NCBI GenBank assembly: GCA_905178155.1
Contig: CAJINV010000003.1
Span: 7,921,882-7,985,881 of the forward strand
Reading direction: 5' to 3'
DNA: 64,000 nucleotides
Source: Amoebophrya sp. A120
Lineage: Eukaryota; Protista; Dinoflagellata
The notes beneath the pieces were generated by a model. It did no database searches. It worked only from the letters and a program-made list of their open reading frames with translations, and had not been told where the DNA came from. Both the position numbers and the translations under genes were made by a program. Position 1 is the stretch's first letter. Each line of letters opens with the position of its first letter. Shown in pieces: positions 31,135-43,900 of the stretch.

Positions 31135-33311
31135 TTACCAGCGCTGGTTCATCCCCGCATTTTCGCGGCCGGTCGACACGACCATACCGCGGTTCAGGAG
31201 CGGCTTTTCGTCGAAGTCGGGATCCACATCGGCGTCGTTGTAGAAGTTCGACTCAAACGACGAACGGGGCAGCGACGAAGCGCGCTCGCCTTCGCCCTTC
31301 ACCGGCACACCCACAACAGAGGACCGCCCATCAGCATACAGCCATTGATCCTGCAGTAAGGGCAAAGGTTTGTTCTCTGACATCAAAATACTGCATTGAT
31401 TTTTGATTTTAGAAAGGGCAAAAGCTGTTACGTTGTGTATACATTGGTTGCTTTCTGTCACAGGTTACTGCGTCTGAAAGTAGGATGAAAGACGCAGCAA
31501 CAAGTACCTGGGCTGGTTCCCAGCAGCACACCGCGAACCATCCGGCAAGGCAGCTCCCCCCGGACATGCATTCGTACAGCTGATATGCAACAAAGAAAAC
31601 TGTGTAAATGTAGCTTTGTGTCTGTCATGCAGAGCATGTAACATGTAGTGCCAGACAACCAAGAAGCCTCTTTTCATGTGTGCTTTCACTCACAAGCCAT
31701 GCATGACACCAGGTCTGTCATGTAGAGCAAATTTGTATTATGCTGTCAGCCAAAGAAGGTTACACTAACACAGTTTTTTTCTAGAATAGCTGAACCACCG
31801 GGACGATAAGCGGGATCAGGGTGCTTGTTCCAAGCGTGGGAGCGAGGCGCAGAAGGGCGATAAGAAAAAAGCCGGACCCAGTGGTACTCAGCGCTAGCGT
31901 GATCAGAATGTTCACAAGGTCTATCAAAGTGAAAATTCCCCTTCCCCATATCTCAATGGAGATCAACACCGCAAAATTTCAGAAGCACGCCGCTTCAATT
32001 CAATATTTATGGGGAAGGGGGATTTGTTCTCGCGATAAGGTCGGAGGTGCCTTCCCATGCGTACAAGGCCAGCAAGGGACACCAGAAGCGGCAGCACTTG
32101 TCCCGGGGATGGCAGTAGCAGCAGCAGTACCTGGTCTCCTCCTGGATCGTCTCGCTGAACGTCTTCTGGATCTTCTTCGGAGTCCAGCAGCACAGGGTGA
32201 ATAAGTTCCAACAGCAAAACGACAACACGACATCAATCCAATCGTCGCACCCTTGCCAGAACTATCACGGGAAAAACTACAACTACGCCCCCATAGTCAA
32301 AGGGACCCTGATGAAGCAAGCACGTCTCCTGCTTGTATTTGGTGCAAGACATAATTATATCCGGTTGAAGATGCCCGAAGGCAAGCATGACATCCAGATC
32401 AAGATTTCGGTTGCTACACTAAAATCTTGCCTACACTGCAAGTGCTCACCCTTTCGCGTATGGGGGCGGCTTTTCCTGCACGATACGGCCCACACCGCGT
32501 ATATCCTGTGTAAAAACGTACCCACACCATAGTTGTCATGCAAATCTGCATGCTTAAACTCTTTCTCATGCGGAGCCCCATGAGAAGCATTCTCTAATGG
32601 TGTTTTGAGATTTGTCGTGCTCCAATCAGCATGAGAGACTAGATCTGTAATGCTGCTGAGCTAGCTCAAACAGCACTACACTACGCGTCCAAATTTGTCA
32701 TGCGAAACAAGCAAAGCTGGCTGATTTGTCTAGCCGATTCCCCATCCTGACTCTGGTGTGGGTACGTTTTTACTTAGGATAGCGTACGGTGGACAGAAAA
32801 ACCGCATGAAGCAGTTGCGAGGATCCGTCGTCTATCCTGTGCAAAAGTATCGTACTCGTATAAATGCAGGTCTTGCATTACAATTCTTGTTCCCAAGGCA
32901 AATCTGCATTACAAATTTTATTTCTCATGCTGAGGGAATTTGTAATGCATTTATACGAATACGATACTTTTGCAGTTCATATCGTCGCCGCGCCTGTATC
33001 CTGCGAAAAAAGTGTTTCACCGTCGTGTTTTTGCAGAATTTGCATGATCTCACAATGGCAATGTTGTTTCGCATGACCGTGATACTCACTTGCCACCCTG
33101 AGGACCAATGCTGTGGTACCAAAAACCTCACCGGGTGAGCTAAATAGGAGCTTCCGTGGTTGCGTTGGAACCCAAATGCAAACCTATGCCTTGCATCCTC
33201 CACAACGCATGCTTGCCGTGATGAAACATTTGTTTTTCTTTTTCTTGGATAGCCCGGGACGTAGCTGCATTCGCAATAACAGCATCGTCTGTGACAATCC
33301 GGCGCAGACAT
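31135..33311 (-). CDS. Cys-rich membrane protein of about 255 aa with two Pmp3/UPF0057-like repeats; 8 exons
   Basis: Reconstructed by removing six introners and one GT-AG intron: MSAPDCHRRCCYCECSYVPGAATTDPRNCFMRFFCPPYAVWAWQGCDDWIDVVLSFCCWNLFTLCCWTP...CCRFWCPLLALYAWEGTSDLVNILITLAL...VVQLYECMSGGSCLAGWFAVCCWEPAQDQWLY...NQRW*. No stops, and the internal repeat aligns without gaps. Confidence 0.8.
31584..31788. mobile_element. TIR introner
   Basis: Perfect TSD GCTGA. Left TATGCAACAAAGAAAACTGTGT; right reverse complement TATTCTAGAAAAAAAACTGTGT. Confidence 0.85.
31922..32037. mobile_element. TIR introner (116 bp, smallest found)
   Basis: Perfect TSD AGGTC. Termini share TATC...AA.TCCCCTTCCCCATA. 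Confidence 0.88.
32263..32485. mobile_element. TIR introner, older copy
   Basis: Termini share TATC...GAAAA...CGCCCCCATA. Flanks AGAAC/CGGCC have diverged. Removal restores the frame. Confidence 0.7.
32502..32781 (-). mobile_element. TIR introner, family A (280 bp), inverted relative to the other two copies
   Basis: Perfect TSD GCGTA. The interior is the reverse complement of 38327-38606. Confidence 0.95.
32833..32981. mobile_element. TIR introner
   Basis: Perfect TSD TCGTC. TIR of about 36 bp, TAT....TGCAAAAGTATCGTA.TCGTATAAATGCA. Confidence 0.92.
32997..33251. mobile_element. TIR introner
   Basis: TSD GCCTG/GCCCG. Termini share TATCC...AAAA...TGTTTCA. Removal restores the frame. Confidence 0.78.
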
Positions 33312-40973: not shown

Positions 40974-43900
40974 TTAGTTGAGTGGCTTGGCCTCGAATTG
41001 CAACTCCGTGTTCTTCTTGGCATTTGCCTTATCCGGAAATTCCAGCGTGAATTCTTTTGCACCAAAAAGTATGTTGTCGACTGCTTCTACACCTTGCAAG
41101 CAGGTGTGGTCCTGATTGCCGATTTCGTACTTCCACGCGCCAAATCTTCCTCGGCTCCAGATTTTCCCACAGAAAAAAGCTAGAAGGATACATGTACAAT
41201 GCACGAACCAAGGTTCGTCATACGATACCCCATGCACAACGAGGTAGCCCCTCTTCTGTGAGTCTCTAAGTCCAACTCCAGTTTCTTTTATGTCATTATT
41301 GCATTACAAATGCGGCATGCTAGACTTTTTCTGTGTGATAAAGATGTCCTTTTTGCGAAGCTCCGGCAAGATTTTCTGGATACATGTGTCCCGGTCTACG
41401 TGCGGAGTTGGGTATCCCTTCTCGAGCCTTACAGAGGTTTGTCGTTTTTTGAAACCGCCTTTAGGCGCACCTCTACGAAAATAAAGGGCTCAACTCATTT
41501 TATCGGATAAAATGAAAAACAAAAACAACATCCACAAAGGGGAGATGAGTAAAGTACTTCGCTGCGAAGAAAGCCGGAATGCAGAAAACAGCAAAGTTAC
41601 CTCCTGCGGCATCGACTGCAAATACGCCGGGGTGGAGTAAATAAAAGGATGTTCAAAAACAGCACGTTCCGCCAACGTTGCAGTACATGTCAAACAGAAC
41701 CTTTGGGAGCGGTACAAATCCCATGCATAGGTACCTACCTGAGCCGTGGCCCTAATTATCGGCGCCACAAAAAAACTGCCTTCTTGCAGGCCGGCACGAA
41801 AGAAACCAACGTAAATCATGATGTAGATGTTCTACTTTGTGGCGCTACAAAAAAGCATTAAAAGTATGATGCCAGACTCTCCCCAAGACTAACCCCGACG
41901 CGTTTGCAGTACATACGTGGTAGATGGAGACAATTTCGTCGGTTGACTGGACCATTTTGGTGTTTATGGCACCTTGAATGGTGTCCTCGACGACCTTCTG
42001 CAAATCCACTGGTTTGTGGGCAGCGCTCTCGCTGATCTCGAACATAAGGGACCAGTAGGGGCCGGCGCGCGACTCGCCCGCGTCGGCGGGCACGGTGCCG
42101 TCACAGAGCCGCAAGGTCGGAAGTTTCTTGTCGTCCGGCGGGCAGTTGTTTTTTGCGTAGAAGCTGAATACCGTGCACCGATAGAAGGGACAGTTATCCT
42201 CCGGGTAGTAGAGCCAACATTTCACGTCGTGTGGAGAGACTCCCCGGAGTCCGATACCGACCACGTGCGTGGAGGAGTAGTGCTATCCTGAGTAAAAACG
42301 TACCCACACCAGAGTCAAGATGGAAAATCTGCTAGACAAATCGGCCAACTTTGCTTGTTTCGCATGACAAATTTGGACGCGTAGTGTAGTGCTGTTTGAG
42401 CTAGTTCAGCAGCATTACAGATCTAGTCTCTCATGCTGATTGGAGCATGACAAATTTCAAAACACCCTTAGAAAGTGCTTCTCATGGGGCTCCGCATGAC
42501 AAACATTTTAAGCATGCAGATTTGCATGACAACTATGGTGTGGGTACGTTTTTACTCAGGATAAGTGCAACTTTTTCCCCTCTGGGTACTCGACCCCGGC
42601 CCACTTCGCCGTCTCGTCTAGTGGCAGCGTCGTCAGGAGCTTGTTATACTGCACCACGCCGCCTTCGCCCGTCTCCGTCGTCTGTTTTCAGTTTTTTCAC
42701 GAATTCAACAAACAAACAGCGGTGCTGTCAGAAGCTTCTTGTCGAAGCTGTGAAATAAACAGACTGACCTGGTGCAAGGAGCATCGTGCCACAACAGTAC
42801 GCACTCTGGTCGACTAATAGTGGAGGTCATGGAAGAAGCTAGTCGTTAAGTAGCACATATTACGCGGCTCATCAGGACAAGGAAAAAAACGATGTGTTTT
42901 TGTCAGTTGTACACCGTCCTCTCCGAGCTGCCGCCAATGCGCACACTTCTGCTCCGTGTCAATCTTTACTATCCGCCGAAAGTACTTCTGCTTGTCTTTT
43001 GGTATCAGAGCCCCGACCTTCTTCCATATTCCGCCCGTGCCTCCCTCCCTTGGGAAGCGGAACACCGCGTTGGGTCCCCAGCCGGCGTCTGGTTGGTTCT
43101 TGATCACGTTAGCGATCACCTTTTTGGATGATGTGACTACTCTTTAGGTCCTGAGCATTAATATCTTCGAGGGTCCAATGCGGAACAAGCCACTACCGCT
43201 CCAAATAAGATACCGCAGCAGCATATGATAGTAGTCATCGTGATTGGAGTTGCAGGTTGCGGTAGTCCACCGAGACCACAGTATTCCTTGATAATAGCAA
43301 CGGGTGTTTTGTTAACAAGAAAGTAAAACTCAAACCTTTTTCGCATCCACGGTGGCCACTCGCTCTCCCAGCCACTGGCAGCTCATCTCTTTCGTTGGAT
43401 ACGCCCAAACTTTGAAGTTGTAGGGTCTCATAAACAAATCGGCAATGCCGTTGCCCATCACTTTCAGGATCCACTCATCAAAATTTCCGGGTGCGGCTGT
43501 GACCTGCAGTTGTTGCAGTAAAATTGTCTGCTCCGAAACACCCTTCATGGTGAATTCAATCTGTTCGACTCACCTAAGGAGCCTTCGAAAACTTAATCAG
43601 AAAAATGCAGACATGGCACAGCAACATGCGTCCTTGTTTTCCCCACTAGAAAGCTAAGTACCTTTGCTGCATCCAAAACGCCGTTGATGCATTCAATTTT
43701 GTCGTTCTGGTCCAGCATGTAGAGGTTGTTCTGGAACGGCTAGAATCCACTGAAAAGGGGTCACGGAGTCCGCAGGGGAAGAAAACACATCCACATGAAG
43801 ACAAAACTAAAAGTGGAAACGTAACAGATCCGGACTCACGATTCGTACTCATGCACGTGGTAACGTGAATCTTCCCTCACCAACCCACGTCGACTGAAAG

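What the first reader, a model, noticed from the sequence alone, without database searches (positions are those of the whole stretch)
32502..42563. Family A: three 280-bp copies within 10 kb, in both orientations relative to transcription
Copies 38327-38606 and 42284-42563 differ by about 4 substitutions, have perfect 28-bp TIRs and different TSDs (CGGCA, AGTGC), which indicates recent independent insertions. Copy 32502-32781 (TSD GCGTA) is the reverse complement, yet its host gene is on the same strand. All three must be removed for an intact ORF. Inference: excision needs no strand-specific branch point or polypyrimidine tract, and mobility is by DNA transposition, since reverse splicing would preserve orientation. 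A more diverged relative of the termini is at 13416-13720.
Basis: seen in the sequence. Interest (0 to 1): 0.78.

Follow-up and report, generated by a model that had tools for sequence, protein, structure and literature searches.

The report
Reversible mobile introns in a parasite
These are three copies of a small repeated element, of a kind already described in the marine parasite Amoebophrya, that sit inside genes facing either way; a transcript contig shows the backwards copy cut out cleanly, and the element likely spreads as DNA and is likely removed by the hairpin its ends are predicted to form rather than by ordinary splice signals.

Summary
Observation confirmed. Family A is an Amoebophrya-type introner: a 280-nt non-coding element with 28-nt inverted ends and a 5-bp target duplication, matching the A120-type elements of Farhat et al. 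2021. Both searchable host proteins hit Amoebophrya A25 best. One probable-RNA contig removes the inverted copy plus one duplication exactly. The two forward copies have no RNA joint here, but their removal restores sequence shared with A25 orthologues. In a second assembly, copies face both ways (14 vs 19 of 33 called, 61 examined), and empty-site alleles exist. Either-orientation introners are already known in other dinoflagellates. Not found in the papers I read: targets show no GT/AG bias in any register (173 elements); three RNA joints place the cut after base 3 or 4 of the duplication; and 2 of 13 sites shared between alleles hold a different element at the same duplication. So near-identity does not prove recent insertion. 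No transposase was found.

The parts
38327..38606 (.). Family A copy A1, 280 nt, perfect 28-nt TIR; TSD CGGCA at 38322-38326 and 38607-38611; near the 3' end of a cation-efflux gene
42284..42563 (.). Family A copy A2, 280 nt, perfect 28-nt TIR; TSD AGTGC at 42279-42283 and 42564-42568; inside an FAD-dependent oxidoreductase gene
32502..32781 (.). Family A copy A3, reverse orientation; TSD GCGTA at 32497-32501 and 32782-32786
   Evidence: probable-RNA contig X4 record 10 lacks it plus one TSD
31800..33311 (-). RNA-supported part of the A3 host gene: small Cys-rich, hydrophobic protein, five non-canonical introns in this stretch, exons as short as about 10-14 nt
   Evidence: joints; one frame of six open from the ATG to the end of the chain; no significant Pfam or homologue hit for its longest exon
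38246..40054 (-). A1 host gene (first exon not mapped): cation diffusion facilitator, PF01545
40950..44794 (-). A2 host gene: FAD-dependent oxidoreductase (homologues carry PF01593/PF13450)
13416..13720 (.). Other-family element sharing only the termini; TSD TCCGT; removal opens a minus-strand frame of 85+133 codons
21901..22162 (.). Second-family element, TSD GATCG, spliced with one TSD
   Evidence: contigs of X3 and X4 skip 21895-22161
23944..24278 (.). Older element with decayed TSD; informative for the cut register
   Evidence: X3 contig skips 23940-24279
31922..32037 (.). 116-nt element, TSD AGGTC, spliced
   Evidence: X4 and X5 skip 31916-32036
32263..32485 (.). Older element with decayed TSD (2 of 5 match); fixes the cut after TSD base 3 or 4
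   Evidence: X4 record 10
32833..32981 (.). 149-nt element, TSD TCGTC, spliced
32997..33251 (.). 255-nt element, TSD with 1 mismatch, spliced
38652..38913 (.). Second-family element, TSD TACCG, about 40 nt from A1
44125..44674 (.). 550-nt element, TSD ATCTG, splitting the oxidoreductase at residues 54-55 of P0001

Best explanation
Family A is a non-coding Amoebophrya-type introner whose backwards copy is cut out of the transcript exactly, and which likely spreads as a DNA transposon and is likely excised by a sequence-tolerant spliceosome guided by the stem its inverted ends are predicted to form. Step 1 (shown in alleles of a second assembly, for sister families): insertion duplicates 5 bp of target of any sequence. 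Step 2 (shown on model-based strand calls): copies lie in either orientation at about equal frequency. Step 3 (shown for A3 and six other elements; inferred from homology for A1 and A2): the element plus one duplication is removed, so the mRNA is unchanged. Step 4 (partly shown): the cut falls after base 3 or 4 of the duplication; base 4 is likely, which makes every intron begin N-U. Step 5 (inferred): the 28-bp terminal stem is the same in both orientations, brings the ends together and sets the cut sites by distance, with no G+1 or AG needed. Step 6 (inferred, enzyme not found): a transposase acting in trans recognises the shared TAT-N7-AAA ends.
For: Anatomy: 64 of 73 paired elements have a perfect 5-bp repeat and 49 of 73 are 279-280 nt. 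Lineage: best hits are Amoebophrya A25. Match to the A120 description, TAT + seven bases + three A's with 3-5-nt direct repeats (PMC7789003 section 11). RNA: X4 record 10 skips A3 and three neighbours, while DNA run X1 reads straight through 31753-32531. Orientation 14 vs 19 of 33 (binomial p = 0.49); Pfam hits on 7 of 64 called-strand segments (6 elements, 3 per orientation) and 0 of 31 antisense controls; an A3-oriented copy splits a CobW domain. Empty sites match 35/35 and 32/35. No target, dinucleotide or 5'/3' TIR bias in 173 of 243 elements with a strand call. Terminal stem predicted in both orientations, z = -7.1 and -9.1. All nine predominant A120 borders in Farhat Table S4 have T at +2.
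Against: A3 splicing rests on one contig (depth 5.2) from one run whose RNA status is the tool's guess; its short side is 27 nt plus a 9-nt piece. X3, X5 and X6 did not bridge A3. The register rests on three joints, only one of them tight. The folding z-scores follow directly from the TIR. Nothing here tests the spliceosome: no lariat or branch-point data, and U1 snRNA was not detected in either published strain. No transposase: the one 2861-nt copy has no Pfam hit in 10 ORFs, and Farhat found none in A120. The second assembly may be another strain or species, and 28 of 61 copies had no strand call.
Confidence: 0.8

Rival explanations
1. Same element and mobility, but excision is not spliceosomal: a structure-specific endonuclease and a ligase cut at the base of the hairpin (euglenid nonconventional introns are the analogy; their mechanism is unknown).
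For: No GT/AG or other dinucleotide bias, and full 5'/3' symmetry of the ends. U1 snRNA not detected. Exons of about 10-14 nt between elements are handled precisely.
Against: The cut is offset with the direction of transcription (1-2 nt before the stem, 3-4 nt after), and the base-4 register keeps U at +2 as in spliceosomal donors. All but six of 89 spliceosomal proteins are present in the published strains.
Confidence: 0.25
2. The three sites are not all recent insertions: old sites are refreshed in place (gene conversion, gap repair after excision, or re-insertion), or interiors flip between the TIRs. Near-identity and mixed orientation would then say little about insertion.
For: L019/L027 (98.2% flanks) share site, TSD and orientation but hold interiors 74% alike that fall on opposite sides of the deepest split of the tree (100/100) and are each 94-95% like copies elsewhere. 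L020/L031 (99.2% flanks) hold different families (264 vs 289 nt, 55%) at one TSD.
Against: 10 of 13 shared sites carry the same element at 93-100%. None of the 12 shared sites with related elements is flipped. Three presence/absence sites show that true insertion happens. A1 and A2 have perfect TSDs and TIRs. No allele of the window's own sites was available.
Confidence: 0.15
3. Mobility goes through RNA (reverse splicing or retrotransposition of the excised intron).
For: No transposase found here or in A120. Gozashti 2025 attribute some A120 introners to LTR and non-LTR retroelements.
Against: Near-equal orientations exclude reverse splicing into mRNA as the main route. The TSD is fixed at 5 bp, both ends are intact and there is no poly(A) end. 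The excised RNA would carry TSD letters that new copies do not bring.
Confidence: 0.07
4. Splicing uses the canonical GT at position 9 and the YAG ending at position 276, which the TIR provides in both orientations; or the inverted copy is not spliced and its host is a pseudogene.
For: Each sense copy has GT at 9 and AG ending at 276 after a T-run.
Against: That cut leaves 17 extra bases, a frameshift. The RNA contig shows clean removal of A3 with one frame open. G9 is common among sister families (85%), but T10 is not (34%).
Confidence: 0.03

Closest known systems
Amoebophrya A120 introner elements (Farhat et al. 2021, PMC7789003; Gozashti et al. 2025, PMC12130899)
   Same: TAT-N7-AAA inverted ends, 5-bp direct repeat over the exon/intron border, non-canonical borders, hairpin, no coding capacity. 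Gozashti's table lists A120 families of 277-279 bp with 30-bp TIRs as 'TIR DNA, unknown' (fam124, fam214).
   Different: No difference in kind. The parts I read do not report orientation relative to the host gene, a fixed cut register or same-site replacement. The TIR here (28-32 nt) is longer than the 8-20 nt quoted. I could not match family A to a named family by sequence (no hit in 12 of 14 supplementary files).
Polarella, Symbiodinium and Aureococcus introner-like elements (Roy et al. preprint 10.1101/2020.10.14.339549; Gozashti et al. 2022, PMC9860276)
   Same: TIR plus TSD elements that create introns; several classes do so in either orientation.
   Different: Those recruit G(T/C/A) and AG from the TSD or the element end, so their TSDs are constrained and orientation is biased. 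Here TSD composition is close to coding background and no register gives GT or AG enrichment.
MITEs (non-autonomous TIR DNA transposons)
   Same: Short, TIR-bounded, fixed-length TSD, non-coding, many copies, presence/absence alleles.
   Different: Sits in coding sequence and is removed from RNA; no cognate transposase or superfamily identified.
Parallel intron gains in fungi and Daphnia (Collemare et al. 2015, PMC4457414, passages); Alu gene conversion (PMC8230782, search listing only)
   Same: Different sequences at one position.
   Different: The fungal cases compare distant species. The swaps here are between alleles 98-99% identical and keep the same 5-bp TSD.

Membership tests
Amoebophrya A120-type introner element | Host lineage is Amoebophrya | tested here: met
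   Best hits of two host proteins are Amoebophrya sp. A25 (74% and 41%). Species or strain not determined.
Amoebophrya A120-type introner element | Inverted ends starting TAT, seven variable bases, then three or more A | tested here: met
   against PMC7789003 section 11
Amoebophrya A120-type introner element | 3-5-nt direct repeat over the border | tested here: met
   3 of 3 window copies; 64 of 73 paired elements perfect at 5 bp
Amoebophrya A120-type introner element | Removed from RNA at non-GT-AG borders | tested here: met
   A3 removed; no GT-AG in any of six registers for any copy; A1 and A2 by homology only
Amoebophrya A120-type introner element | Repeated in unrelated genes | tested here: met
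   three unrelated hosts here; 70 paired elements with these ends in 72 loci of a second assembly
Amoebophrya A120-type introner element | Sequence match to a published family model | tested here: inconclusive
   17-nt end not found in 12 of 14 supplementary files of PMC12130899; family consensus sequences not seen
MITE / TIR DNA transposon | TIR, fixed-length TSD, no coding capacity | tested here: met
MITE / TIR DNA transposon | TSD made on insertion (empty site has one copy) | tested here: met
   sister-family elements, 35/35 and 32/35; a family A left end at L037:5001 faces an empty site, right end off-contig
MITE / TIR DNA transposon | Autonomous partner with the same TIR and a transposase | tested here: inconclusive
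   only long copy (L065:5001-7861) has no Pfam hit in 10 ORFs; no whole genome was held
Splice-site-recruiting introner (Aureococcus/Polarella type) | GT/GC/GA donor and AG acceptor taken from TSD or element end | tested here: not met
   in the base-4 register donors are AT 60, GT 48, CT 37, TT 28 and AG acceptors 19 of 173
Spliceosomal intron | Lariat intermediate and dependence on U2/U5/U6 | not testable with these tools
   contigs drop lariat reads; raw-read run X9 did not cover the locus
U12-type (minor) intron | Conserved minor-type donor and minor snRNAs | tested here: not met
   family A's start resembles the minor donor (recalled), but positions 5-8 vary widely among sister families; minor snRNAs reported absent

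The most novel reading that the evidence does not exclude
Amoebophrya has a sequence-blind, orientation-blind splicing route that cuts at fixed distances from an RNA stem (one base before it, four after, only U+2 kept), so any TAT..ATA element is harmless at any coding position; and these introns are swapped in place, one family replacing another inside the same 5-bp duplication between alleles 98-99% identical, so intron positions persist while their contents turn over.
Probability: 0.35. Interest if true: 0.72.

Novelty: already known. Interest (0 to 1): 0.4.

Why it matters
The element class is published, so the finding as written is not new. It still narrows an open question: how Amoebophrya removes tens of thousands of introns without GT-AG and with no detected U1 snRNA. 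Orientation-free removal, unbiased targets and a fixed cut register make a hairpin-ruler model testable with existing RNA data. If same-site swaps are real and common, introner age cannot be read from copy identity, and shared intron positions need not mean shared intron descent.

Tried and rejected
No whole genome was held, so copy number and a genome-wide transposase search could not be done; summed contig depth over element bins (over 150,000 vs about 25-30 in unique bins) is not a copy number. No run was on record as an RNA holder. The joint table was filled by DNA-run repeats (15 of 236 rows shown). X3, X5 and X6 did not bridge A3. The loose element scan was no better than shuffles (83 vs 96-116), so it was replaced by a strict scan. 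The splice-motif strand test was noisy and not used. The junction score alone mis-called A3's host as plus (4.8 vs 4.2); RNA and the locus score gave minus. Viral contigs: 0 matches. Rfam: 0 matches in the window. A3 host's longest exon: no homologue, no Pfam hit at E <= 0.01 and one chance-level hit at 0.51; a resemblance to Pmp3-type proteolipids is recalled and untested, and no ESM Atlas result was obtained. The 2861-nt copy as an autonomous element: rejected, no Pfam hit in 10 of the ORFs listed. Local hopping: 0 of 32 same-contig pairs vs 64 of 1798 other pairs at >= 95%. In-place inversion: none seen among shared sites. The L001/L005 and L014/L053 pairs were not orthologous at the elements and were left out of the 13 shared sites. 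Nine of 70 elements were dropped before the orientation count: 4 allelic duplicates, 2 with mismatched flanks, 3 with no clear interior orientation. Huff et al. 2016 was not held, so it is not used as evidence.
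Full report
1. Observation. The three copies lie exactly where stated. A1 (38327-38606) and A2 (42284-42563) differ at 4 of 280 positions and have perfect 28-nt TIRs. A3 (32502-32781) is the reverse complement, 93-94% identical, with two TIR mismatches. The TSDs are CGGCA, AGTGC and GCGTA. Each copy has stops in all six frames, and no register of 'element plus one TSD' gives GT-AG on the minus strand. The element at 13416-13720 shares only the termini.

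2. Hosts and lineage. A2 interrupts an FAD-dependent oxidoreductase whose best hit is Amoebophrya sp. A25 (74%). After removal the peptide aligns without a gap to that orthologue. 119 of 120 homologues span the junction; only 4 of 119 have no gap within 8 residues, and in the three more distant rows printed the gaps are 1-2 residues. A1 lies after the Pfam domain of a cation-efflux gene, 26 codons from the stop; removal makes a short motif continuous with the A25 orthologue. The A3 host has no significant database match for its longest exon, so its strand rests on RNA and frame.

3. RNA test of the inverted copy. No listed holder was on record as RNA, but four were guessed to be. DNA run X1 reads through 31753-32531 without a difference, including A3's left junction. 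X4 record 10 (297 nt, depth 5.2) joins 33252-33456, five letters, 32782-32832, nine letters and 27 letters ending at 32259. The five and nine letters are window 32987-32991 and 32488-32496, so A3 plus one TSD is removed exactly, along with three neighbours. The chain has one frame of six open from an ATG to its end, on the minus strand, so A3 is inverted relative to A1 and A2 in the direction of transcription. Limits: one contig, one run, 36 letters on the short side in two pieces; X3, X5 and X6 do not bridge it; contigs give neither strand nor splicing efficiency. Other elements are skipped in X3, X4 or X5 (21895-22161, 23940-24279, 31916-32036).

4. Wider sample. The 22-nt TIR matched 72 loci, all with the contig prefix of one other assembly, and no viral contig. 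Its relation to the window's organism is unknown, though one copy is 99.6% identical to A2. Of 73 paired elements (70 there, 3 here), 49 are 279-280 nt and 64 have a perfect 5-bp repeat; 67 of them, treed, form two subfamilies. After dropping 9 of 70, 33 of 61 had a strict host-strand call from a codon model: 14 like A1 and 19 like A3 (p = 0.49); looser calls gave 19 and 29 of 48. Pfam hit 7 of 64 called-strand flank segments (six elements, three per class) and 0 of 31 antisense controls; an A3-oriented copy in L041 splits a CobW domain between profile positions 78 and 82.

5. Mobility. Two sister-family elements have empty-site alleles with a single copy of the 5 bases (35/35 and 32/35), and a family A left end faces an empty site. 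The enzyme is not found: the single long copy (2861 nt) has no Pfam hit in 10 ORFs, and Farhat et al. report no transposase in A120. Gozashti et al. 2025 describe an A120 TIR family with ORFs related to LTR elements; a 5-bp stagger would fit an integrase-like DDE enzyme (recalled; a lead only). Local hopping is not supported.

6. Same-site replacement. Five allelic contig pairs share 13 occupied sites: 10 hold the same element (93-100%), 1 is ambiguous (76%) and 2 hold a different one. L019/L027 carry opposite subfamilies at one TSD; L020/L031 carry different families with little end homology. If new insertions fell uniformly, 2 of 5 polymorphic events landing on occupied sites would have p of about 5e-6 (a crude null), and targets show no sequence preference. 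Gap repair or conversion could explain the first case; the second needs re-insertion at the vacated site or a non-sequence hotspot. Assembly error is not excluded, since I had no reads for these contigs. This weakens 'near-identical means recently inserted', although A1 and A2 may well be recent.

7. Splicing. In 173 of 243 strict elements with a strand call, TSD and flank composition is close to coding background, no register enriches G+1 or AG, and no TIR position differs between the 5' and 3' ends. Seven RNA joints were examined; four have perfect TSDs and are uninformative, and three with mismatched TSDs allow cuts after base {3,4}, {2-5} and {2-4}. All nine predominant A120 borders in Farhat's Table S4 have T at +2, which fits a cut after base 4, though aligner placement may bias that table. 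The TIR stem is predicted in both orientations. The inner GT and YAG of the TIR would leave 17 extra bases and are not used in the A3 contig. I infer a stem-guided cut by a tolerant spliceosome (about 0.6 of the excision question) over an endonuclease and ligase (about 0.3).

8. What is known. Farhat et al. 2021 (PMC7789003: abstract, passages, sections 10-12 and 16, supplement parts 2-3 of 5; figures not seen) describe this class, with 29,850 elements in 1,954 families in A120. Gozashti et al. 2025 (PMC12130899: passages, a search of 12 of 14 supplementary files, 22 of 58 A120 rows) class most of those rows as TIR DNA elements, two with 277-279 bp and 30-bp TIRs. Roy et al. (preprint 10.1101/2020.10.14.339549: passages; supplements not available) report either-orientation introners in Polarella and Aureococcus, with near-canonical sites. 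Gozashti et al. 2022 (PMC9860276, passages) allowed for opposite-orientation copies. I also saw passages of PMC11282704 and PMC4457414 (parallel gains); PMC13326754 gave nothing relevant on a term search; PMC8230782, PMC4202315 and PMC3935182 were seen as listings only. Orientation, register and same-site replacement in Amoebophrya were not found in searches or in the parts read; unseen figures, supplements and subscription papers may hold them. The scan's index had nothing on this place or sequence and one unrelated note by words.

9. Verdict. A real feature and a member of a published class: already known. Orientation-independent excision is shown for one copy and supported in bulk. Interest 0.4, carried by the cut register and the same-site swaps, which are testable but rest on few cases.

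Noticed in passing
L020:2332-2595 vs L031:3341-3629: Alleles 99.2% identical hold different families (264 and 289 nt, 55% alike, sharing little beyond TAT..ATA) inside the same 5-bp duplication.
   Followed up: partly
L019:4744-5022 vs L027:4743-5022: Same site, duplication and orientation, but the two main family A subfamilies (74% alike) in alleles 98.2% identical.
   Followed up: partly
L037:1759 vs its L065 allele: Shared site with elements of 304 and 282 nt, 76% alike, flanks about 95%: decay or a third replacement.
   Followed up: no
L065:5001-7861: 2861-nt element with family A ends and a perfect 5-bp duplication; about 2.6 kb of extra sequence with internal direct repeats and an A-run near one end; no Pfam hit in 10 ORFs.
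   Followed up: partly
L007:5001-5280 and L053:125-403: Family A copies with mismatched flanks; L053 shares its right flank with L003. Misassembly or recombination between copies.
   Followed up: no
window 32263-33251: Four elements in 1 kb, separated by exons of about 14, 50 and 10 nt, all skipped in one contig.
   Followed up: yes
window 31916-32036: The joint reads GT..AG on the plus strand only through the TSD letters; the gene is on the minus strand. Aligners could mis-strand such introns.
   Followed up: partly
window 21901-21931: A 2026 RNA run with the same species label matches only this 30-nt end, from about one other locus: perhaps a related strain with the same ends.
   Followed up: no
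window 37201-38318: One probable-RNA contig runs from the tail of the cation-efflux gene into the next 1239-codon ORF on the same strand: overlapping or read-through transcripts, or DNA.
   Followed up: no
window 8896-9201: Decayed element-like ends without a matching duplication.
   Followed up: no
window 2200-3140: Long low-complexity coding-like repeat of 9-24-nt units.
   Followed up: no
window 31584-31788, 40058-40343, 41163-41340, 47649-47807, 57742-58265: Further TAT..ATA-type candidates with 4-5 of 5 duplication matches; RNA joints not seen.
   Followed up: partly
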